Shown piece by piece: positions 498-29,490 of a stretch of DNA of 64,000 nt. A program made the translations under genes and the position numbers. The notes below the pieces were generated by a model that saw only the letters and a list, made by a program, of their open reading frames with translations, was not told where the DNA came from and made no database searches. Within the stretch, counting starts at the first letter, position 1; each line of letters starts with the position of its first letter. This stretch comes from Nitrososphaerota archaeon (GTDB lineage Archaea > Thermoproteota > Nitrososphaeria > Nitrososphaerales > JACQRY01), in contig JACPCU010000020.1 in the NCBI GenBank assembly GCA_016184315.1, positions 21,025 to 85,024 on the forward strand, in the 5' to 3' direction.

Positions 498-1481
498 ATG
501 AGTGTAAATCTTGAAAAACTTGACGGACATGGGTTTGAGGACCTAATTGAGAAACTCCTGATTAGGATGGGGTTCAAAACTGAGGGTAGGAAACCCACAG
601 CAGACGGAGGGATAGACATTGTTGCTATATCTGAAGAACCAATATTGAAGGGACGATACATTATCCAGTGCAAGAAGTGGCAGAGCCCAGTTTCTGTTCC
701 AGTCATCAGAGATCTCTACGGGGTGGTCAATGCTGAGAATGCTAACAAAGGAGTGTTGATAACAACCTCTAACTTTACTGCTGACGCTATCGAGTTTGCA
801 CGTGACAAGCCCATAGAGCTGATCGACGGTGCAAGATTAGACGAGCTCATTAGACAACACAGCTTATCCGAAACCACTCTAGGAGACAAGGCCATATCAT
901 CGAGACAGGCAGCTGCGGAATCATTGAGAGTAGAACTTTCAGGTCTTTCAGACCGATATAGAAGAAGAATCAATGAGGTAGAAAACAGCCTCAACGTCTT
1001 GCATTCAAAGGGGTTCGGCAGTGAATCGGAAAAGAGAACATACACAGCATACCGAAAGTTTACGCTTGAAGTAATGGAACGGATAGAAAATCGCTTCGTA
1101 GCCGTCTGTAAAAGTACAATAGACAATATGAAAAGTTCGTTAGAAGCTTCTGGGACGGCTAGACAATTAGGAAAACATCTGCAAGAATTAGCCGAATATG
1201 CTTTTGAAACATGGGAAAATATCAGACGTACTAATCCTCCCTCAGAATTTGCTAGATCACACAAAATATTGGAAGGCATTGCAGCACAAATACTGGAGAG
1301 TTTTCTAGATTTCCTGCACCAAGTCGAAGAATCTCTCAGCGACTACCTAACAGAAAAAGGAAAGATTGACCACTCAGTTACACTCAAACTCCACATTCCA
1401 CAATCCGAATGGGACGAGCTTGTGAGTAGTTGGAAAGATGCATACAGTCTAGTTTACAAAAGATTACGAATCACTTTTTAA
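498..1481 (+). CDS. Mrr-cat (PD-(D/E)xK) restriction-endonuclease-domain protein with an unknown helical C-terminal domain
   Basis: The N-terminal ~120 aa carry classic Mrr catalytic-domain motifs: GHGFEDLIEKLL..MGF, DGGIDIVA, YIIQCKKW, GVLITTSNFT. Residues ~125-327 are helical with no motif I recognise. Confidence 0.75.
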   Translation: MSVNLEKLDGHGFEDLIEKLLIRMGFKTEGRKPTADGGIDIVAISEEPILKGRYIIQCKKWQSPVSVPVIRDLYGVVNAENANKGVLITTSNFTADAIEFARDKPIELIDGARLDELIRQHSLSETTLGDKAISSRQAAAESLRVELSGLSDRYRRRINEVENSLNVLHSKGFGSESEKRTYTAYRKFTLEVMERIENRFVAVCKSTIDNMKSSLEASGTARQLGKHLQELAEYAFETWENIRRTNPPSEFARSHKILEGIAAQILESFLDFLHQVEESLSDYLTEKGKIDHSVTLKLHIPQSEWDELVSSWKDAYSLVYKRLRITF

Positions 1482-1503
1482 TAGTTACCTAAGCCAAGCC
1501 TAC

Positions 1504-2496
1504 TCAAGTTATGATCAGAGACTTGACATCTAGCTCCTCAAGAACCTTCAGGTTAGCTTGATCGTAGATTTTCTTCAGTCTCTCAGGAGAATAATCAGAA
1601 TAATGACTAGCCAAGATCGATCTAGGGACTCTGCCACAGAAAAAATCAATCCACCTATCAGCCACACCTAGATCACTCATTTCATTACAGAACCATTCTC
1701 TAAGCATCTGAGCATTGATCTTTACACCAGACTTCTTACTGACACGGCTGAAAGCTCTCTGAGCTCCTCTTATCGAATAGCCAAATAATGTCTTATAGAC
1801 TCCTAACACATTAGTTATTTCTACACGAGCCTCTCGGTTGAAGAAAGCAATAGAAGAATTTCTCTTAGTCTCTCCCCTATGAATATCATTAGACAGCCTA
1901 ACCATATTTCTACTCGGATCAAGTTGATCCGAAGTTATTGAAAGGGCTTCACCTAATCTAAGTCCAGAGGAACTTAAGAATAGGAAAAGTGCCTTGAAAT
2001 GCACTGTATCAACATGCTCGTAAAATCGTTTCAATTCCTGCTTTGACGGGACAATAATCATCTTAGGAGCTGGTCTCACAAGCTTAAAGGACGATACTAG
2101 GTGAGGTGATCTAAGATAGTCTCTGAAAAAGACTCTAAACGACTTAATGTAATTACTCTTAGAAGCTGGTCTATCTTTGTATCCACTAAGAAATGCTCTT
2201 AGATCTTCATTGTTAATCTTTAAGAGAGGTTTATTTATGATCTTGATGAACCTGTTTATCCTCCATAAATGGTGCTCTTTAATGGTGCTCGGTGCTAGTC
2301 CTAAATCAACTTCTAGGTATCGTCTGAAGCCTTCTAGAACATCATCAACATTACTACTTTCCGTAATAGCATTACCAGAAACCGTAACCAGATATGTTAA
2401 AGTCCTAGCATCATAGGGCACACTCTCAAGTAAAAGGGGCTGTCGTCTAGTTTGGTCCAGGATTCCAGCCTCGGGAGCTGGCGACCGTGGGTTCAA
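1504..2496 (-). CDS. tyrosine recombinase / integrase (archaeal integrative-element type)
   Basis: SAM-like N-domain (VLEGFRRYLEVDLGLAPSTIKEH..) and a catalytic domain with Arg (SGLRLGEAL), LREWF box and C-terminal Tyr (ASHYSDY). The ORF runs antisense through 61 nt of tRNA-Pro. An in-frame GTG at 2423 is an alternative start. Confidence 0.85.
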   Translation of the reverse strand: MNPRSPAPEAGILDQTRRQPLLLESVPYDARTLTYLVTVSGNAITESSNVDDVLEGFRRYLEVDLGLAPSTIKEHHLWRINRFIKIINKPLLKINNEDLRAFLSGYKDRPASKSNYIKSFRVFFRDYLRSPHLVSSFKLVRPAPKMIIVPSKQELKRFYEHVDTVHFKALFLFLSSSGLRLGEALSITSDQLDPSRNMVRLSNDIHRGETKRNSSIAFFNREARVEITNVLGVYKTLFGYSIRGAQRAFSRVSKKSGVKINAQMLREWFCNEMSDLGVADRWIDFFCGRVPRSILASHYSDYSPERLKKIYDQANLKVLEELDVKSLIIT

Positions 2497-2511
2497 ATCC
2501 CACCAGCCCCA
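2436..2511 (+). tRNA. tRNA-Pro (anticodon CGG)
   Basis: Cloverleaf read by hand. Acceptor GGGGCTG/CAGCCCC, anticodon stem CCAGC/GCTGG with loop CTCGGGA (anticodon CGG), T-arm GTGGG-TTCAAAT-CCCAC, discriminator A. No encoded CCA. Confidence 0.9.
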
Positions 2512-2554
2512 CTCCGAATCTCTTGTTCCTGCCTGACGCGACCTAACAACTTAT

Positions 2555-2752
2555 TTGATCATGACCAGTACTGAAGCCAAGTTACGCAGGATCGAAGAAA
2601 AATTGGAAGGGCTGGAGGAAACTATCGAAGTCTTGGCAGAACCTAAGTTACTCCGCGGAATAAAGCGGGCGTTAGACGACATTGCTGAGGGTAGATACCG
2701 AGACTACGATGACGTCGAGCAATTTAGAGCTACGTTCGAATCCAAGGTATGA
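2555..2752 (+). CDS. type II antitoxin (RelB/Phd-like) paired with RelE
   Basis: 65-aa acidic helical protein. ATGA stop/start overlap with the downstream RelE-family toxin. Confidence 0.6.
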   Translation: MIMTSTEAKLRRIEEKLEGLEETIEVLAEPKLLRGIKRALDDIAEGRYRDYDDVEQFRATFESKV

Positions 2753-3006
2753 AGTATCGTCTCAGAGTTCCGAACACCTTTGAGCGCGAGTTAAGAAGAC
2801 TCGGTCAGCAAGATAAGGATAGAGTCTGGAAGACTATAGGAGAGATTCAAGAATCTCCGTATTCGTACAAGTTCCTAACAGGACAGCTCACCGGCACTAA
2901 ATCTGCCAGAGTTGGAAATATCAGGATAATATTTGCAATCGACGAGCATGCGAAACGAATATTACTGCTTCACATAGGTTATAGAGGAAAAGTATACGAA
3001 CATTGA
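2749..3006 (+). CDS. relE: RelE/ParE-family mRNA interferase toxin
   Basis: 85 aa with the archaeal RelE pattern: ..ESPYSYKFLTGQLTGTKSARVGNIRIIFAIDEHAKRILLLHIGYRGKVY. Confidence 0.8.
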   Translation: MKYRLRVPNTFERELRRLGQQDKDRVWKTIGEIQESPYSYKFLTGQLTGTKSARVGNIRIIFAIDEHAKRILLLHIGYRGKVYEH

Positions 3007-4139: not shown

Positions 4140-4373
4140 ATGGGAACGAAGAACATAGCTATCTCCGAAGAGGCCTACCAAAGACTCAAAGCTATAAGGA
4201 AGCCTAGGGAAAGCTTCACCGAGGTCATCGAGAGAATCACCCGCAGCAGAAGCATCCTAGAGTTGGCGGGTGTGTTGTCGAAGACCGAAGGGGCTGAACT
4301 GAAGAGCATGATCAAAAAAATTCGCGCGGAACGCTCTAAACGGATACATGAGACAATCCAAAGGTTGCACTGA
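4140..4373 (+). CDS. vapB: VapB-type antitoxin (COG1753/DUF217-like)
   Basis: 77 aa. The N-terminus KNIAISEEAYQRLKAIRKPRESFTEVIERI is typical of archaeal antitoxins paired with PIN toxins. Sits immediately upstream of vapC. Confidence 0.7.
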   Translation: MGTKNIAISEEAYQRLKAIRKPRESFTEVIERITRSRSILELAGVLSKTEGAELKSMIKKIRAERSKRIHETIQRLH

Positions 4374-4375
4374 GC

Positions 4376-4768
4376 TTGCTTGTCGATACCACCTTCATAA
4401 TCGACATTATGCTTAACGATAAAGCTGCAATTAGAAAAGCGCAAGAGCTGGCTGACACATCCACCCCTCTAATTGTTGGAGCCCCAACCATATTCGAACT
4501 GTATGTCGGAGTCGGATTAAGCGTGAAGTCCCAAGAGGAGAAAGTAAAGATTCTTGATGTACTAAAATCGCTTACTCACCTGCCTCTAGACAACCAGTCA
4601 GCGTCAAGAGCCGGACTTATCTACGCTGAAAGAACCAGACAAGCTAGAAAGATCGATACCGAAGACGCAATGCTGGCAGGCATTGCCATTGAAAATCACC
4701 AGCCATTGCTCACTAGAAACATAAAGGATTTCGCCGGAATATCCGAGCTAAGAGTCGAAAGCTACTAG
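4376..4768 (+). CDS. vapC: PIN-domain ribonuclease toxin VapC
   Basis: 130 aa. N-terminal LVDTTFIID (first acidic PIN residue), later conserved acidic residues (DTEDAMLAGIA), C-terminal LLTRNIKDF. Confidence 0.85.
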   Translation: MLVDTTFIIDIMLNDKAAIRKAQELADTSTPLIVGAPTIFELYVGVGLSVKSQEEKVKILDVLKSLTHLPLDNQSASRAGLIYAERTRQARKIDTEDAMLAGIAIENHQPLLTRNIKDFAGISELRVESY

Positions 4769-7876: not shown

Positions 7877-10800
7877 TTGTCCACTGAGGGCTATCGATCA
7901 GAAACCAAAAGTGAACTGTTAGGTGACCAAGGACTAAAGATCCAAAGACAGTTCACCAAACAGGGAGAAAACATCTACGACATGTTTGACTGGGAAAAAC
8001 GTCCTTCGGTCATAAGGAACCCTGATGGCAGCATAGTGTTTGAAATGCCTGACGTGGAGGTTCCTAGATTCTGGAATCAGACTGCCACTGACGTCCTTGC
8101 ACAGAAGTATTTACGTAAACGAGGCGTACCGCAGCTAGACAAAGACGGCAAACCTGTCCTTGACGCCAACGGTAACCCCGTCCTAGGATCAGAAACATCC
8201 CTCAAACAAATCGTGCATAGACTTGCCGGCTGCTGGACTCACTGGGGGAAGAAGTACGGCTACTTCGCCTCCGACGCCGATGCTCAAGCCTTCTACGATG
8301 AAATTGCCTACATGCTGACCAACCAGATGGCTGCCCCCAACTCTCCTCAATGGTTCAACACAGGTCTAAACTGGGCCTACGATATTACCGGACCAGCCCA
8401 AGGCCACTACTTTGTTGACCCAGACGCAAAGCAGCTCACCGCCTCCAAAGACGCTTACTCGCATCCCCAAGTGCACGCATGCTTCATCCAACCAATAAAA
8501 GACGACTTGGTGAACGAAGGAGGAATAATGGATCTATGGGTCAGAGAAGCCAGGATCTTCAAGTACGGCAGCGGTAGCGGCACCAACTTCTCCACCCTCC
8601 GAGCAAAAGGAGAAACCCTGTCAGGAGGAGGAATCTCCTCCGGAGTCATGACCTTCCTGAAGATCGGCGACCAAACCGGAGGCGCCATAAAGTCAGGAGG
8701 AACCACTAGAAGAGCAGCTAAGATGGTCATACTCAACATCGATCACCCGGAGATAGAAGACTTCATCACATGGAAGGTAAACGAAGAGAAAAAGTTCGCA
8801 GCACTGGTGCACGCAGGACTCGCTCCAAGCACCATGGAGGCTGCAGGTGACCACGTCTTCGGACAACACTCCAACAACTCTGTCAGAGTTACTGACGAGT
8901 TCATGAAAGCTGTTCTAACTGATGGCCAGTGGAACCTGACATGGAGAAGCGGCGGAGTCGCCAAGACCGTCAAAGCAGCTGACCTGTGGAATAAGATCGC
9001 GGAGTCCGCGTGGGCCTGCGCTGACCCTGGGCTTCAATACGACACCACGATAAACGACTGGCATACATGCCCATCGTCAGGCAGAATCAACGCGAGCAAC
9101 CCTTGCTCAGAATACATGTTCCTTGACAACACTGCGTGCAACCTTGCATCCATCAATCTAACCAAATTCTTTGACCCTGCAACCAAGATGTTCGACGTGC
9201 AGGCCTTCACCCACGCCGTCCGGCTTTGGACTATCGTCTTGGAGCTGTCAGTGCTGCTGGCCCAGTATCCCAGCAAAGAAATCGCTCAGAGAAGCTATGA
9301 AACCCGAACCCTAGGCTTAGGATTCACCAACCTAGGTTCAATGCTAATGATTGCAGGAATACCCTACGACTCAGACAGAGCCAGAGCCATATGCGGCGCA
9401 TTATCAGCCATAATGACCGGAGAAGCCTACGCGACGTCAGCAGAAATAGCCAGTTTCCTCGGCCCCTTCCCCGACTATCAGAAGAACCGTGAACACATGC
9501 TTGAAGCCATCAGGAATCACCGTCGCGCAGCCTACAACGCTAGGCCCGAGGAGTACGATGGTCTCCACACAATTCCCGTAGGCCTCGACCAGAAGAACTG
9601 CCCCCAGTACATTGTGATCTCAGCCATGGATGCTTGGGACAGGGCTCTAGCTCTAGGCGAAAAATACGGGTACAGGAACGCTCAGGCAACCCTGATCGCT
9701 CCTACCGGAACCATAAGCTTCGTCATGGGCGCTGACACTACCGGCATCGAGCCTGACTACGCCTTGGTCAAGGTGAAGAAGCTCTTCGGAGGCGGCTACT
9801 TCAAAATCATCAACAAATCCGTCATGGCTGCACTGAAGAACCTTGGCTACAGCGAGGAGCAGATCGATGACATCATCAAACACGTGATAGGGGCCAACTC
9901 TCTGAAAGATGCGCCTCACATAAACGACGTTACTCTGAAGGTGAAAGGCTTCAGCGAAGAAGACATCCGCAAAATGGAGGACGCCCTGCCCACAGTATTC
10001 GATGTTCAGCAGGCTTTCACAGTGCACGTCCTAGGCAAGGAGACCTTGGAGAGACTGGGCTTCACGTCACCCCAGTATAACTCGCCTTCCTTCAACCTGC
10101 TAAAGTCCATGGGTTTCCCAGAGACTGAAATAGAGAAGGCCAACGAATATGTCTGCGGCACCCAGACAGTTGAAGGAGCACCGCACCTCAAAAAGGAGCA
10201 CTACCCCGTCTTCGACTGCGCCAACAAGTGCGGCCCCAAAGGCAGAAGGTTCATCGACTACATGGCTCATGTCAGGATGATGGCTGCTGCCCAACCCTTC
10301 CTATCAGGATCCATCAGCAAGACCATCAACATGCCCAACGAGGCCACCGTCACAGACGTGCAGAGAGTCTACTTGGAGGGGTGGAGGCTGGGACTCAAGT
10401 CGCTGGCCGTCTACCGGGATGGAAGCAAGATGGTTCAACCTCTCACCACGGGAGTAGAAGAAAAGGAAGAATCAAAAGTCGTCTACAAGGCTGTGAGAAG
10501 ACGCCTCCCCGACGAGCGAACCTCGATAACACACAAATTCAAGATCGGGAACCAAGAGGGTTATCTCACAGTGGGCCTCTACGAAGACGGCAAGCCCGGC
10601 GAACTGTTCATCACCATGTCCAAGCAGGGCAGCACCCTGTCAGGGCTCATGGACGCCTTCGCCACATCCGTCTCAATAGCTCTGCAGTACGGAGTACCCC
10701 TAGAAGTCTTGGTGAACAAATTCATTCACACAAGGTTTGAGCCATCAGGCTGGACTAATAACCCCCAGATCAGATCAGCGAAGTCGATAACGGACTACAT

Positions 10801-25707: not shown

Positions 25708-26224
25708 GGTTGCTGTCCTCAGAATCGGTTACAGGCTGGTCAGAGATGACCGAATCACCACTCACATTGCTTTGGTTGCACGGGCCTTTGGAGCTGACTG
25801 CATATACACCGTGGGAGGGGAGGAAGATCTTGCGGAGACGATTAGGAATGTCAACAAGCGGTGGGGTGGAGACTTCCAAGTCGAGTTTGTTGACGATTGG
25901 AAGAAAGTCGTAAGACAGTGGAAGAATAGTGGAGGACTAGTAGTCCATCTTACGATGTATGGGTTAGGTATGGAAACAGTTGAGGAGGTTCAAAGAGGAG
26001 AGAGAAACATTTTGGTCGTTGTGGGGGCAGAGAAGGTTCCTCGGGAACTCTACAGCATGGCTGACTATAATGTTGCTGTAAGTCATCAGCCTCACTCCGA
26101 GGTTTCAGCCCTAGCAGTGTTCTTGGATAGATACTTCAAAGGAGAAGAGTTGAAGAAGAATTTCCGGGATGCGAAGATGAAGATTACCCCCTCAGCCAAA
26201 GGCAAGAATGTAGTAGAACTCTAA
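25700..26224 (+). CDS. tRNA (cytidine56-2'-O)-methyltransferase aTrm56 (SPOUT)
   Basis: VAVLRIGYRLVRDDRITTHIALVARAFGAD and WGGDFQVE are typical of the aTrm56/COG1303 family. Confidence 0.88.
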   Translation: MPRVAVLRIGYRLVRDDRITTHIALVARAFGADCIYTVGGEEDLAETIRNVNKRWGGDFQVEFVDDWKKVVRQWKNSGGLVVHLTMYGLGMETVEEVQRGERNILVVVGAEKVPRELYSMADYNVAVSHQPHSEVSALAVFLDRYFKGEELKKNFRDAKMKITPSAKGKNVVEL

Positions 26225-26283
26225 CCATATGATCCGACTACGAGAAAACCTTTAATCTTTCTCAAACGAATAATAACCATTCT

Positions 26284-26823
26284 ATGTCAGAACCTCGCAC
26301 AACGCCTCCACGCCTTAGAATAGAGTATGAAGACTCCTTCGTAAAGATCGCAGGGCTCCTAGGAGGAGAAGAATACGTCCGGGTTGCCCGAGCCCTTTTG
26401 AACAACGAGAACGCTACCGATGAAGAGATCGCAAGTGCCACCGGCCTCAAGATCAACACTGTGAGGAAGGCTCTCTACGACCTCTTCGGAAGATCCCTGA
26501 TCTCAGGCATAAGGGTAAGAGACCTGAAGAGAGGATGGTTCGTATACAGATGGAAGGCCCAGCGAGATCAGGTGGACGGCTTCATAGAGACACAGAAACG
26601 CAAAGTGTTGGAGCGATTAAAGATCAGGCTTGAAAACGAAGATACCCACGAATTCTACCACTGCGGAGTAGATACATGTCAGAGGCTGACCTTTGAACAG
26701 GCCATAGAAGTCTTCTTCAAATGCCCCTCATGCGGGCACCCCTTCTCACTCATAGAGAACGGCAGGCTCAAAGAATCTTTGGCTTGGAAGATCAAAGACA
26801 TCGAATCAGAGATACAGAAATAA
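26284..26823 (+). CDS. tfe: transcription factor E (TFE alpha)
   Basis: Winged helix (DEEIASATGLKINTVRKALYDLF) and Zn ribbon (FYHCG..C....FKCPSCG). Confidence 0.9.
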   Translation: MSEPRTTPPRLRIEYEDSFVKIAGLLGGEEYVRVARALLNNENATDEEIASATGLKINTVRKALYDLFGRSLISGIRVRDLKRGWFVYRWKAQRDQVDGFIETQKRKVLERLKIRLENEDTHEFYHCGVDTCQRLTFEQAIEVFFKCPSCGHPFSLIENGRLKESLAWKIKDIESEIQK

Positions 26824-26830
26824 TCTTCAC

Positions 26831-26870
26831 GCCCGAAACATACCGAAACTATAGCGGAAATGGTAGCCCG
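26831..26870. repeat. att-like direct repeat, distal copy (tRNA-Gln 3' end plus flank)
   Basis: A 40-nt segment matching 28222-28261 with 3 substitutions and 2 single-nt indels. The last 20 nt (ATAGCGGAAATGGTAGCCCG) are identical. A degenerate third copy lies at 26923-26948. Confidence 0.8.
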
Positions 26871-27087
26871 TAATAGGTTGTCACTGTCTATCGTTAACGT
26901 AGCCTTAGAGTAGCAAATTCTTGCCCGAAATATAGCGATGGTGGACGGAAGTAGGTTTACAATAAGCCATCGCTTCTCATGCTATGTTGGGTTAGGAGAA
27001 TCACGGCACGTGCCGTTGAGTTTTATGGTGGGAAACGGGCAGACTCGTAACTAAACCTGTTCAGTTTTCCCGACTCGGCTTACCCAT

Positions 27088-28023
27088 CTACTCTGCTTTG
27101 TGCATTACCCATTCTGCCAGGCCATAATCTACACATAGCTTGGCTACCTCTCTGGGACCGAGATATCTGATTTCTTCGGTCTCAGCTCCACTCTCCATTG
27201 AATAATTTTCTAGGCTATCCTCGGGTGTATGAACCGCGAAGAAGAAGCGAGCATAACCTGCCATTTCAGCAAAGCGATCCTTGTAATCTAAATAGTCTTG
27301 CCGTCCTGCCTTCGATTTAACCTGAACGGAGATCTTTTCATTTGTCACAGGCGAGAGCAGCTCGAGGTCTATCGTTTTCTGTGGCCCGCCCAGCTTGCCG
27401 ATGCGTTTCCAACCAGCACCCCTGAAGATGAGATCAACAAGGAGCTCGAAATCCTTCCAATGAAGGCCTCGAATCAAACTTTCAATATTATCGACTAGAG
27501 TTTTGTATGCTGCCTGAGCCTCTTCGATGCGAGGTGGTGTCTTCCCGTTGATTTTATTGACCAGGTACTCAAATTCCTTGACTTTACAAATAGTGCCCCT
27601 GTAGCCCTGCATGCTTAACAGGCTCCCTCGCAATCTGTCCGTCGACAGTTTGTTATCTTTGACATCGGTGCTTCGCCATTGGTCGATGACTTTCCTGAAC
27701 CTACTACCGTCGCCAAGCTTAGTTACCTCGGGGTTCGAGAAGCACCACCGAAGAGAATTCCCGTGGAAGGTTACCCACAGCACGTCAGTGCCCGCCTCGT
27801 AAAATTCTTTGATCTGATTCAGATCTCGCCTGATAGCCCCTTTGTCGTTTCTTATCTTTTGAAGTTGCTTTTCTACATGATTCCAGCGGCGGGCTACACA
27901 GTCTTCGTGTGAGATTTCATTATAGCCAAACCGTATGGTCTGATTTTCTAAGCACTCTTTTTCCCATCCACCTTCCGATCCAAGCTTTATGTAGCATGCA
28001 CGATTTGGTTTTATCTCCTGCAT
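27088..28023 (-). CDS. Mrr-cat-like PD-(D/E)xK nuclease domain protein with an unknown N-terminal domain
   Basis: The C-terminal half (HWKDFELLVDLIFRGAGW .. TIDLELL .. ISVQVKSK) parallels the Mrr catalytic motifs seen in ORF 498-1481. The N-terminal ~190 aa (ACYIKLGSEGGWEKECLENQTIRFGY..) are unassigned. Confidence 0.6.
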   Translation of the reverse strand: MQEIKPNRACYIKLGSEGGWEKECLENQTIRFGYNEISHEDCVARRWNHVEKQLQKIRNDKGAIRRDLNQIKEFYEAGTDVLWVTFHGNSLRWCFSNPEVTKLGDGSRFRKVIDQWRSTDVKDNKLSTDRLRGSLLSMQGYRGTICKVKEFEYLVNKINGKTPPRIEEAQAAYKTLVDNIESLIRGLHWKDFELLVDLIFRGAGWKRIGKLGGPQKTIDLELLSPVTNEKISVQVKSKAGRQDYLDYKDRFAEMAGYARFFFAVHTPEDSLENYSMESGAETEEIRYLGPREVAKLCVDYGLAEWVMHKAE

Positions 28024-28251
28024 ACGTGATTCAGCAGGCTCTACTACTCCTTAGCTCGGATTTAAGGCATGCTGGGGTGTGGTATACAGGTCTTTGCTAT
28101 ACTCTTCTATCCTTTTTCCCTAAAGACGGCTTGAAATTGAAGTAAAGGTAGCCCGTGACAGGTTCGGTTCCATGTTCGCAAGATCTTATAACGTCAGATA
28201 GGTGTTTTATGCCCTTTTTCTGCCTGAAATATAGCCGAAACATAGCGGAAA

Positions 28252-28327
28252 TGGTAGCCCGGGGCAGATTCGAACTGCCGTCACCGGCTCCAAAGGCCAG
28301 TATGCTTGACCGCTACACCACCGGGCT
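28252..28327 (-). tRNA. tRNA-Gln (anticodon UUG) with encoded CCA
   Basis: The reverse complement reads AGCCCGG..CTGGC-CTTTGGA-GCCGG..GGCAG-TTCGAAT-CTGCC-CCGGGCT-A-CCA. The cloverleaf was checked by hand. Confidence 0.9.
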
Positions 28328-28374: not shown

Positions 28375-29490
28375 TTAAGCTTTCCCAACCCCAGCTTGTT
28401 CAACCACATCCAACACCTTTTCAACCGGATCCTCCATCCAGTTAAGTAAGCGCTGTGCCTTCTTCTTGATGTCAGTCCTCAGAGATTCCTCCTCCAGATA
28501 TTTAGCCACAGATCTGATTATTCCACGGATGTCCTTGGCTGGCTGAACAAGGCCTCTGCGGGCCAAGAAGCCTAGAACCAGCACCTTGGATCCTCCCATG
28601 AAGGCTGAGACTGTGGGAACCCCTAGGAGAGCTGCTTCCGCAGTCATTGTGCCCCCTAAGCCAACAAATACATCTGTTGACCTCAGAAGGCCGACGCCGT
28701 CAACAGGCTCAGCAGGAACGTAAACATTAGCTGGAAGACCTTGGGAGAACTCTTCGACCTGCTCCTTGTATCGGCACAGGGCGATGATATTGCAGTCAGG
28801 GTGTTCCTGAGCAAGTGAATTGACAAGCATTTTCGCAGAGATTCTAGTATTGCTAAGCATGTAGGCAGCGGAGCTCTCTTCAAGCCTAACTGTGACAGTT
28901 CTTTTGCTCCAGTCTAGGGCGAGAGGAGGCCGTGAAGCAGCGTTTCGCGGCAGCCGTTTCAGCCATGCCGCAGGATCCAGAGCTCTATATCTCGTAATCC
29001 TGTTTCTGGTAATGCCGAAGCGTGTCCATAGGTGAAGAGGGATTATCCAAGGCGTGACCAGCATTGACGAGAGAGGTATCGTGAGCCTCCCTACGCTCTC
29101 CGCGTGGGGCGAGTCGTTTATGCAGATATGTTTGACTCCAAGTCCAAAAGCGACTCTTGCACACTCAGGGGAACTGAAAGATACTGCACAATCAACATTC
29201 TCTCCGGCAATTCTCTTTGCGAGCAGAGCTGAGCGTTCAACACTTGCCTCCAACTTCTCTCTAAGAGCTGCTCCGCCATGTCTACCGATCAACTCAAGGC
29301 TTAGACCTGCAATCGGTGCAAGGCCTTCAACCTCACGGTAATGCCTGGATGTGGCTATTACATGATGCCCTCTCTCCTGGAGCTGAGCAATCAGAGGCTT
29401 GAAGAACAGGAGCTGCTTAGGTGTTAAAACGTCTATCCAGATCTTCAAGACCTCGTCAACAGACAGGGAAGAGACGTTAGTTATAACCAC
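28375..29490 (-). CDS. DUF354-family protein (GT-B / epimerase-like fold, predicted glycosyltransferase)
   Basis: N-terminus KIWIDVLTPKQLLFFKPLIAQLQERGHHVIATSRHYRE..LIGRHGG matches the DUF354/COG1817 pattern from memory. Confidence 0.7.
   Translation of the reverse strand: MVITNVSSLSVDEVLKIWIDVLTPKQLLFFKPLIAQLQERGHHVIATSRHYREVEGLAPIAGLSLELIGRHGGAALREKLEASVERSALLAKRIAGENVDCAVSFSSPECARVAFGLGVKHICINDSPHAESVGRLTIPLSSMLVTPWIIPLHLWTRFGITRNRITRYRALDPAAWLKRLPRNAASRPPLALDWSKRTVTVRLEESSAAYMLSNTRISAKMLVNSLAQEHPDCNIIALCRYKEQVEEFSQGLPANVYVPAEPVDGVGLLRSTDVFVGLGGTMTAEAALLGVPTVSAFMGGSKVLVLGFLARRGLVQPAKDIRGIIRSVAKYLEEESLRTDIKKKAQRLLNWMEDPVEKVLDVVEQAGVGKA

What the first reader, a model, noticed from the sequence alone, without database searches (positions are those of the whole stretch)
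26831..28327. Integrase-less 1.35-kb islet at the 3' end of tRNA-Gln bounded by a 40-nt direct repeat
The 20-mer ATAGCGGAAATGGTAGCCCG occurs at 28242-28261 and again at 26851-26870. In the first copy it covers the last 10 nt of tRNA-Gln including the encoded CCA, plus 10 nt of 3' flank. Similarity extends to 40 nt with 3 substitutions and 2 single-nt indels. A third, more degenerate copy lies at 26923-26948. The repeat itself is built from three ~11-nt units (GAAAnnTAGCn). That could reflect reiterated copies of the tRNA terminus from repeated integration and excision. The enclosed DNA carries one gene (a nuclease fusion) and no recombinase. This is the expected picture for a decayed or satellite-type tRNA-targeting element, or a cargo cassette mobilised in trans.
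Basis: partly seen in the sequence, partly recalled or inferred. Interest (0 to 1): 0.55.

Follow-up and report, generated by a model that had tools for sequence, protein, structure and literature searches.

The report
Integrase-less nuclease islet at tRNA-Gln
A 1.4-kb stretch carrying one restriction-type nuclease gene sits at the end of a tRNA-Gln gene in a thaumarchaeal genome, bracketed by copies of the tRNA's end; it looks like a worn-down remnant of an integrating mobile element, which is a known and fairly ordinary thing.

Summary
A 20-bp exact repeat (26851-26870 = 28242-28261; 40 nt at about 90%) covers the last 10 nt of tRNA-Gln(UUG) plus its trailer. It brackets 1371 bp holding one gene and no recombinase.

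The gene encodes an Mrr-superfamily nuclease (invariant D..QxK). Its best fold matches are MspJI and AspBHI, and its homologues sit in defence islands.

The closest relative keeps the flanking gene order but has a dehydrogenase gene in this slot. Independent k=31 assemblies of the source samples break exactly where expected if chromosomes lacking the DNA between the two cores co-exist. A distant relative carries a 6-kb integrase-bearing element in the same tRNA-Gln. A 42%-identical integrase lies 25 kb away in this window, next to tRNA-Pro.

Best reading: a non-autonomous, decayed, att-flanked islet, similar to a bacterial CIME.

- The ~11-nt units are not integration scars. They are a tRNA-Gln trailer conserved at other Nitrososphaerota tRNA-Gln genes with housekeeping neighbours.
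- The nuclease gene has host-like composition, and nothing shows active mobilisation in trans.

This is a new member of a known kind, of modest interest.

The parts
28252..28327 (-). tRNA-Gln(UUG), intron-less, with encoded CCA. Its 3' end is the integration target.
   Evidence: ARAGORN; Rfam RF00005, 61 bits.
28222..28261 (-). Copy A (attL-like): the last 10 nt of the tRNA plus a 30-nt trailer. The exact 20-bp core is 28242-28261.
26831..26890 (-). Copy B (attR-like). The exact core is 26851-26870 and the trailer copy is 26831-26850, ending 8 nt from the TFE stop codon. 26871-26890 is a worn T-arm-like part (GACAG..CTATT ACGGGCT) that differs from the resident tRNA.
28116..28175 (-).
   Evidence: Family D1 (83% over 23 nt); the 9-mer GGTAGCCCG; alignment A1; Smith-Waterman score 26-28 against a background maximum of 25.
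26918..26960 (-). Copy D: an inner degenerate copy, 92 nt from copy B, lacking one ~14-nt unit.
   Evidence: Family D4.
27088..28023 (-). The only gene of the islet: a 311-aa two-domain Mrr-superfamily nuclease with an N-terminal beta-rich domain and a C-terminal PD-(D/E)xK-type domain (invariant D219, Q234, K236).
   Evidence: Pfam Mrr_cat, 19 bits, below the cut-off; 1182 homologues; invariant columns; AF2 pLDDT 90.6; Foldseek top hits MspJI, NucS and AspBHI.
26284..26823 (+). TFE (TFIIE-alpha) gene, the conserved flank on the distal side, convergent with the islet.
   Evidence: Pfam TFIIE_alpha, 8.9e-16; synteny with L012.
28375..29490 (-). DUF354 gene, the conserved flank upstream of tRNA-Gln. 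This adjacency holds down to 45% protein identity.
   Evidence: Pfam DUF354, 4.9e-50.

Best explanation
The DNA between the two 20-bp cores (26871-28241, period 1391 bp) is a small non-autonomous genomic islet lodged in the attachment site at the 3' end of tRNA-Gln(UUG).

Inferred origin: incoming circular DNA carried its own slightly different copy of a tRNA-Gln 3' end plus trailer. It recombined with the resident tRNA end by Campbell-type site-specific integration. The crossover fell inside the 20 identical base pairs. This rebuilt the tRNA (copy A) and pushed the old end plus trailer next to TFE (copy B). The reaction is of the kind catalysed by archaeal tyrosine integrases. The islet encodes none, so it has either lost its integrase through deletion or depended on one supplied elsewhere.

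The two worn inner copies (C and D) are read as leftovers of earlier integration, accretion and deletion at the same site.

The single cargo gene encodes an Mrr-superfamily D..QxK nuclease. It is most likely a modification-dependent (type IV-like) restriction enzyme, that is, a defence gene.

Shown: the repeats, the gene content, non-synteny in the nearest relative, use of this tRNA by an integrase-bearing element in a relative, and assembly-graph breaks at the core edges.
Inferred: the integrase-mediated origin, the decay history, the existence of an islet-less allele, and the nuclease's biochemical role.
For: 1. Exact 20-bp direct repeat overlapping the tRNA 3' end, with none expected by chance. 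Thaumarchaeal att sites are typically this short (median 17 bp), and 57% lie in tRNA 3' ends (PMC6563490).
2. Identity is mosaic. The core has 0 differences in 20. The trailer has 4 in about 20. The T-arm part has about 9 in 18. Copies B, C and D share AACCT..ACGGGCT where the tRNA has AATCTGCCCCGGGCT. This fits recombination between two diverged partners better than uniform decay of a duplication.
3. The nearest relative, L012, has a different gene in the slot. Homology ends at the TFE stop codon and at the CCA end.
4. Logan contigs are built with k=31 and end at graph branches (PMC12424806).
   - L004 spans exactly 26841-28271.
   - L003 and L005 start at 28271.
   - L016 ends at 26870.
   - A simulation shows 26841-28271 is exactly the k-mer span specific to the filled allele when compared with an allele joined in the core.
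5. L029 carries a 6-kb element with a 266-aa archaeal phage integrase, flanked by a 45-nt tRNA-Gln repeat. L020, L022 and L039 are the matching empty sites.
6. A 42%-identical integrase lies in this window at 1504-2370, next to tRNA-Pro and an Mrr_cat nuclease.
7. Nuclease homologues lie beside HEPN_AbiV and beside a type I R-M system. The family is spread across bacteria and archaea.
Against: - There is no integrase, integrase fragment or excisionase in or beside the islet.
- No element with this att was found in IMG/VR.
- The nuclease gene has host-like GC, GC3 and codon usage (0.473, 0.516, distance 0.21, against host values of 0.50, 0.56 and 0.20). The tRNA-Pro integrase (GC 0.388) and its neighbouring Mrr gene (GC 0.424) are clearly foreign in composition. 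Any acquisition of the islet is therefore either old or from a similar donor.
- The islet-less allele is inferred from contig ends only. No junction sequence was seen.
- One sample is inconsistent: L003 starts at 28271 but reads through 26870.
- L012 is too distant (about 75% DNA identity) to count as a true empty site.
- Copies C and D are only marginally above background.
- Part of the repeat is a conserved trailer that could be duplicated for other reasons.
Confidence: 0.55

Rival explanations
1. Integration without any integrase. A circular or linear DNA fragment carrying a tRNA-Gln 3' end plus trailer came from another Nitrososphaerota strain or from the genome's own tRNA-Gln(CUG) locus. 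It entered by ordinary homologous recombination across 40-60 bp of about 90% identity. Later loss happens by the same route.
For: - The repeat partners look like two diverged versions of the same tRNA-Gln end plus trailer.
- That trailer is a native feature of tRNA-Gln genes in other Nitrososphaerota.
- tRNA-Gln(CUG) genes share the whole 3' exon with this tRNA, so ectopic homology exists.
- The islet has no integrase.
- Its composition is host-like.
Against: - The homology is very short, with only 20 bp exact.
- The geometry, with the crossover at the extreme 3' end of a tRNA, is the signature of tyrosine-recombinase elements. The same tRNA is demonstrably used by one such element.
- This model does not explain the extra inner copies.
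Confidence: 0.18
2. The islet is an active single-gene cassette or satellite. A tyrosine integrase encoded elsewhere excises and re-inserts it in trans, for example the one at 1504-2370 or one outside the window.
For: - Intact 20-bp cores.
- Apparent presence/absence or cassette polymorphism bounded exactly by the cores.
- An integrase of the family that targets tRNA-Gln in L029 is present 25 kb away.
- That integrase element also carries an Mrr-type nuclease.
Against: - The resident integrase sits at tRNA-Pro. Nothing resembling the tRNA-Gln core lies next to it, and the core occurs nowhere else in the window.
- The contig breaks fit the deletion junction and not the circle junction.
- Deletion between direct repeats needs no integrase.
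- No similar cassette ends flank the nuclease homologues.
Confidence: 0.1
3. There is no mobile element. The nuclease is a long-resident gene. The copies are duplications of a functional tRNA-Gln trailer (terminator or processing signal) that insulate convergent transcription units. The population variation comes from deletion between them.
For: - The trailer is conserved at unoccupied tRNA-Gln genes elsewhere.
- The nuclease has host-like composition.
- The copies sit at the ends of transcription units: after the tRNA, before and after the nuclease gene, and next to the TFE stop.
Against: - The copies include tRNA-internal sequence (acceptor 3' strand, CCA and T-arm remnants), not only the trailer.
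- The motif is absent after tRNA-Pro and from the rest of the 64 kb.
- The nearest relative lacks both the gene and the copies.
- The family is a patchily distributed defence-island gene.
Confidence: 0.12
4. The repeat is a chance match, or the arrangement is a MAG misassembly.
For: Nothing specific. The MAG comes from a multi-strain metagenome.
Against: - No matches in 100 shuffles.
- Independent Logan contigs from other runs reproduce the arrangement. L002 reads from inside the tRNA through the nuclease into TFE and Trm56. L003-L006 agree at 99.5-100% identity.
Confidence: 0.02

Closest known systems
Cryptic integrated elements (CIE) and other tRNA-integrated iMGEs of Thaumarchaeota (Krupovic et al. 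2019, PMC6563490)
   Same: - Integrated at the 3'-distal end of a tRNA gene.
- Short direct-repeat att (20 bp here; reported median 17 bp).
- Restriction-type cargo is common in these elements.
   Different: - Reported elements are multigene, 2.6-140 kb, and were recognised largely by their XerC/D-type integrase.
- This islet is 1.4 kb with one gene and no integrase.
- It carries extra worn att-like copies.
CIMEs (cis-mobilizable elements) of streptococcal ICE families (definition in PMC5704250; Pavlovic 2004 and Bellanger 2011 cited there)
   Same: - Retains attL- and attR-like repeats at a tRNA or gene 3' end but lacks integration genes.
- Multiple att copies suggest tandem accretion followed by deletion.
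   Different: - CIMEs are bacterial and tied to conjugative elements with a known cognate ICE.
- Here the host is an archaeon, no cognate autonomous element is identified, and mobilisation is untested.
The 6-kb integrase-bearing element in tRNA-Gln(UUG) of locus L029 (found here)
   Same: - Same target gene in the same DUF354-tRNA-Gln context.
- Direct repeat of the tRNA 3' end.
- Its integrase family is also present in this window (42% identity).
   Different: - The L029 att is 45 nt, perfect, lies wholly inside the tRNA (anticodon loop to CCA), and has the integrase 26 nt from the distal att.
- The window's repeat shares only 10 exact nt with the tRNA and extends 30 nt into the trailer.
Integron gene cassettes
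   Same: A single gene plus a recombination site, with the recombinase supplied from elsewhere.
   Different: - There is no attC-type imperfect palindrome, no IntI and no attI platform.
- The repeats here are direct copies of a tRNA end.
Mrr / MspJI superfamily of modification-dependent restriction endonucleases (PMC2938202)
   Same: - Variable N-terminal domain plus a C-terminal catalytic domain with a D...(Q/E)xK motif (D219, Q234, K236 invariant).
- MspJI and AspBHI are among the top structural matches.
   Different: - The Pfam Mrr_cat score is below the gathering cut-off (19 against 21 bits).
- TM-scores are low (about 0.3).
- There are no PADLOC, NCBIfam or PDB sequence hits.
- Substrate and activity are unknown.

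Membership tests
tRNA-targeting tyrosine-recombinase integrative element (archaeal iMGE) | Direct repeats (att) flank the element, one of them overlapping the 3' end of a tRNA gene | tested here: met
   20-bp exact and 40-nt ~90% repeat; 10 nt lie in tRNA-Gln.
tRNA-targeting tyrosine-recombinase integrative element (archaeal iMGE) | Encodes its own integrase, intact or as split SSV-type halves | tested here: not met
   Only one ORF of gene size lies inside. A phmmer search with an archaeal integrase hits only 1507-2550 in the window.
tRNA-targeting tyrosine-recombinase integrative element (archaeal iMGE) | Absent from the same site in related genomes (empty site) | tested here: inconclusive
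   The nearest relative, L012, has another gene in the slot and no repeat. Contig breaks fit an islet-less allele, but no junction sequence was seen.
tRNA-targeting tyrosine-recombinase integrative element (archaeal iMGE) | Foreign base composition or codon usage | tested here: not met
   GC 0.473 and GC3 0.516 lie within the host range. The tRNA-Pro integrase is 0.388 and 0.353.
tRNA-targeting tyrosine-recombinase integrative element (archaeal iMGE) | Excises as a circle | not testable with these tools
   This needs raw reads or PCR. The contig ends do not fit the circle junction.
CIME-like decayed, att-flanked, integrase-less island | attL and attR retained while integration and transfer genes are lost | tested here: met
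CIME-like decayed, att-flanked, integrase-less island | A cognate autonomous element with the same att specificity exists and can mobilise it | tested here: inconclusive
   An integrase-bearing element uses tRNA-Gln in L029. The integrase in this window is at tRNA-Pro. No viral-contig match was found. The rest of the genome was not available.
Transposon or casposon insertion with target-site duplication | Terminal inverted repeats and an exact, sharply bounded TSD | tested here: not met
   No inverted repeats at the ends. The repeat is mosaic, with graded identity and indels.
Integron cassette | attC imperfect palindrome with IntI/attI nearby | tested here: not met
   The repeats are direct tRNA-end copies and no palindromic arms were found.
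Mrr superfamily (type IV) restriction endonuclease (the cargo gene) | C-terminal PD-(D/E)xK-type domain with D...(Q/E)xK, and a variable N-terminal DNA-binding domain | tested here: met
   D219, Q234 and K236 are invariant in 38 sequences. Mrr_cat match at residues 185-239. Two-domain AF2 model. MspJI and AspBHI are among the top hits. Motif definition from PMC2938202.
Mrr superfamily (type IV) restriction endonuclease (the cargo gene) | Cleaves modified DNA | not testable with these tools
   This needs biochemistry.

The most novel reading that the evidence does not exclude
The islet is a living, minimal (1.4-kb, one-gene) defence cassette. Its only mobility functions are tRNA-Gln-end att sites. 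A tyrosine integrase encoded elsewhere in the thaumarchaeal genome shuffles it in and out of the chromosome. This would be an archaeal counterpart of integron cassettes or CIMEs, smaller than any integrated element so far described in Thaumarchaeota (2.6 kb minimum in PMC6563490). The conserved 11-nt-periodic tRNA-Gln trailer would serve as the recombinase landing pad.
Probability: 0.1. Interest if true: 0.6.

Novelty: new member of a known kind. Interest (0 to 1): 0.3.

Why it matters
If correct, this adds a very small, integrase-less, att-flanked defence islet to the thaumarchaeal mobilome. Surveys that look for integrases would miss such elements. It also shows that tRNA-Gln(UUG) downstream of DUF354 is a recurrent integration hot spot across Nitrososphaerota.

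In practical terms, contig break points in k=31 assemblies can reveal presence/absence alleles without access to the reads.

The biology itself is well known in bacteria and in crenarchaea: integrated elements decay into att-flanked remnants that carry a restriction-type gene. The finding therefore refines a catalogue rather than changing a concept.

Tried and rejected
- **Circle model.** A circular excised form predicts contig ends at 28261 and 26851, and a TFE-side end at 26880. The observed ends are 28271, 26841 and 26870, so this was rejected in favour of a deletion or empty junction.
- **DUF354 contig ends.** All six DUF354 contigs end at 28260. I first took this as part of the polymorphism. 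It is explained more simply: tRNA-Gln(CUG) genes with a canonical 37/38 intron share the 3' exon, as seen in the JGI loci.
- **Viral-contig scans.** Scans for the tRNA 3' end and for the core found nothing. A scan for the variant end CTGTCACGGGCTACCA hit mostly jumbo-phage tRNA-Val genes and nothing relevant, so it was a chance match.
- **Protein-based locus searches with DUF354.** One distant genome hit was found and no metagenome hit.
- **A motif remnant beside TFE in L012.** An apparent remnant seen by eye is not above background.
- **Cassette ends at homologue loci.** The islet's non-coding ends share no similarity with the loci of nuclease homologues.
- **Transposon/TSD and integron readings.** Both were rejected on anatomy.
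- **Second tRNA-Pro copy.** None was found in the window.
- **Direct junction search.** The islet-less and circle junctions were not found in any fetched locus.
Full report
**Setting.** The window is archaeal. The finding lies between a TFE (TFIIE-alpha) gene (26284-26823, +) and tRNA-Gln(UUG) (28252-28327, -). Upstream of the tRNA on the same strand are a DUF354 gene and two proteasome subunit genes. On the other side, aTrm56 and an HflX-type GTPase precede TFE. The proteins match exactly an NCBI metagenome-assembled genome labelled Thaumarchaeota/Nitrososphaerota (MBI2184708-11, 95.5-kb contig).

**The observation.**
- The 20-mer occurs exactly twice in 64 kb, with none expected even at 3 mismatches.
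- It spans the last 10 nt of the tRNA, including an encoded CCA, plus 10 nt of trailer.
- Gapped, the two 40-nt copies agree in 37 of 41 columns, with 2 substitutions and 2 indels.
- The weak copy at 26923-26948 exists.
- I found a further copy at about 28116-28175. The 9-mer GGTAGCCCG occurs three times in the window, all at this locus, against 0.22 expected.
- An alignment of the four copies shows a common plan: T-arm 3' part, acceptor 3' strand, CCA, then trailer.
- The order, read from the tRNA, is A, 106 nt, C, nuclease gene, D, 92 nt, B.
- In a whole-window Smith-Waterman scan, B scores 58. C and D score 26-28 against a background maximum of 25, so each is only marginal alone.
- Between the cores there is one gene-sized ORF (27088-28023, -) and no recombinase.

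**The cargo gene.**
- The 311-aa protein gives only a sub-threshold Mrr_cat hit. PADLOC, NCBIfam and PDB sequence searches give nothing useful.
- It has 1182 homologues at E<=1e-3. The named ones are mostly bacterial, and the best non-self hit is 67% identical.
- In an alignment of 38 members, D219, Q234 and K236 are invariant. This is the D...(Q/E)xK motif that defines the Mrr superfamily, whose members combine a variable N-terminal recognition domain with a C-terminal catalytic domain (PMC2938202).
- An AlphaFold model is confident (pLDDT 90.6). Its best PDB matches are MspJI, NucS/EndoMS and AspBHI, although TM-scores are low at about 0.3.
- Homologues sit next to HEPN_AbiV and next to a type I R-M operon in an archaeal contig.
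- I therefore read it as a probable modification-dependent restriction (defence) nuclease. The activity is inferred and has not been shown.

**Is the segment an insert?**
- The closest relative with context is L012 (GCA_016206275.1; TFE 91%, HflX 77%, DUF354 72% identical). It keeps HTH-HflX-Trm56-TFE on one side and tRNA-Gln-DUF354 on the other.
- In L012 a 296-aa NAD-binding dehydrogenase gene occupies the slot. There is no repeat of the tRNA end.
- Alignable DNA stops precisely at the TFE stop codon and at the CCA end.
- The nuclease is therefore not syntenic. At about 75% DNA identity, however, L012 is not a true empty site.

**Evidence from independent assemblies.** Logan contigs are built with k=31 and end where the graph branches (PMC12424806). 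A 20-bp repeat cannot by itself cause such a branch.
- Contig L004 spans exactly 26841-28271.
- L003 and L005 start at 28271.
- L005 ends at 26844, next to a C/G SNP at 26843.
- A TFE-side contig, L016, ends at 26870.
- A simulation shows that 26841-28271 is exactly the set of 31-mers specific to the filled allele when an allele joined within the core is also present.
- A circular junction would predict different ends.
- The same breaks would also arise if another cassette lay between the same two cores.
- L002 reads through both junctions in its sample, and L006 reads through the distal one in its sample, so no islet-less signal appears there.
- L003 is inconsistent: it starts at 28271 but reads through 26870.
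- No junction sequence was seen directly, so the polymorphism remains an inference.
- The common end of all DUF354 contigs at 28260 has a mundane cause. Intron-containing tRNA-Gln(CUG) genes share the 3' exon.

**The target site in relatives.**
- A metagenome scan for the tRNA's 3' end returned 37 loci.
- DUF354-tRNA-Gln adjacency holds down to 45% protein identity.
- L029 has two copies of the last 45 nt of the tRNA, 6 kb apart, enclosing a 266-aa archaeal phage integrase 26 nt from the distal copy. L020, L022 and L039 are the matching empty sites.
- This tRNA is therefore a proven integration target.
- A phmmer search with the L029 integrase found a 42%-identical integrase in the window itself at 1504-2370. 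It abuts tRNA-Pro and lies beside a strong Mrr_cat nuclease gene. Both genes have clearly foreign composition.

**The ~11-nt units.**
- The trailer GCTATGTTTCGGCTATATTTC is not found after tRNA-Pro or anywhere else in the window.
- A very similar tandem pair with 11-nt spacing follows tRNA-Gln(CUG) in L019 and in L023/L045. One unit follows it in L018.
- In 250 kb of fetched loci, the window's trailer finds its best matches exactly there, scoring 36 and 35 against a background maximum of 31.
- Those loci have housekeeping neighbours, no second copy and no integrase. For L019, the adjacent aminotransferase is 83-85% identical to proteins of MAGs labelled Nitrososphaerales, and L023/L045 carry the orthologous gene.
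- The units are therefore an old tRNA-Gln trailer of unknown role, possibly termination. They are not scars of repeated integration.

**Synthesis.**
- The mosaic identity best fits Campbell-type recombination between the resident tRNA end and a diverged tRNA-Gln-end sequence on incoming DNA. The core is perfect, the trailer differs slightly, and the T-arm part is strongly different and shared among B, C and D but not with the tRNA.
- A 20-bp att at a tRNA 3' end is typical for Thaumarchaeota (PMC6563490).
- The structure has no integrase and has extra worn att-like copies. This matches the definition of a decayed, att-flanked island, or CIME (PMC5704250).
- Against a recent or active element: composition is host-like, no cognate autonomous element was found, and there is no circle signal.
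- Rivals that remain open are integrase-free homologous recombination, active mobilisation in trans, and a native gene framed by duplicated trailers.

**Verdict.** This is a new member of a known kind, of modest interest.

Noticed in passing
window 498-2512: A tyrosine integrase (1504-2370, minus strand; Pfam Archaeal phage integrase plus SAM-like N domain) abuts tRNA-Pro(CGG) at 2436-2512. Next to it is a strong Mrr_cat restriction endonuclease gene (498-1481, E=2e-34). Both have very low GC (0.388 and 0.424 against a host value of 0.50). This is probably the end of an integrated element that extends beyond the window's left edge. No second tRNA-Pro copy lies in the window. Logan contig L075 ends 30 nt into tRNA-Pro, which implies a graph branch at 2435|2436.
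   Followed up: partly
window 2555-3006 and 4140-4768: Two toxin-antitoxin pairs lie just beyond tRNA-Pro. One is a ParE-like toxin (2749-3006) with a small upstream partner (2555-2752). The other is VapB/VapC-PIN (4140-4373 and 4376-4768).
   Followed up: partly
L019 2923-2960; L023 5933-5975; L045 4726-4768; L018 414-445; window 28205-28251: A tandem GCTATnTTTC trailer with 11-nt spacing directly follows tRNA-Gln genes of both isoacceptors in several Nitrososphaerota lineages. Its function is unknown (terminator, processing signal or protein-binding site).
   Followed up: partly
L029 3889-9907 (JGI Ga0078972_1001240): A 6-kb integrated element in tRNA-Gln(UUG) has a perfect 45-nt att and an intact 266-aa archaeal integrase at 9037-9837. 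L020, L022 and L039 are the empty sites. Its other ORFs have no Pfam match.
   Followed up: partly
L012 808-903; L001 3665-3782; JGI loci: tRNA-Gln(UUG) carries non-canonical introns in the relatives L012 (one, in the D-arm) and L001 (two) but is intron-less in the window. tRNA-Gln(CUG) genes carry a canonical 37/38 intron and share an identical 3' exon with the UUG gene. ARAGORN in bacterial mode misses all the intron-containing genes.
   Followed up: no
window 26843, 26664 and 26133-26234: Strain-level SNPs are visible between Logan contigs and the MAG. One (C/G at 26843) lies inside the distal repeat's trailer, so several strains co-exist in the samples.
   Followed up: no
L021 1367-3509 versus L020 5689-6055: In another DUF354-tRNA-Gln lineage, about 2 kb with two extra ORFs lies between the tRNA and the next conserved gene in one contig but not in its relative. 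This may be another variable insert near the same tRNA.
   Followed up: no
L033 5335-5986; L047, L049, L040: In a more distant group (TFE about 65% identical), tRNA-Gln is followed about 135 nt later by TFE on the same strand. tRNA-Gln/TFE adjacency is therefore old, but the orientation differs from the window.
   Followed up: no
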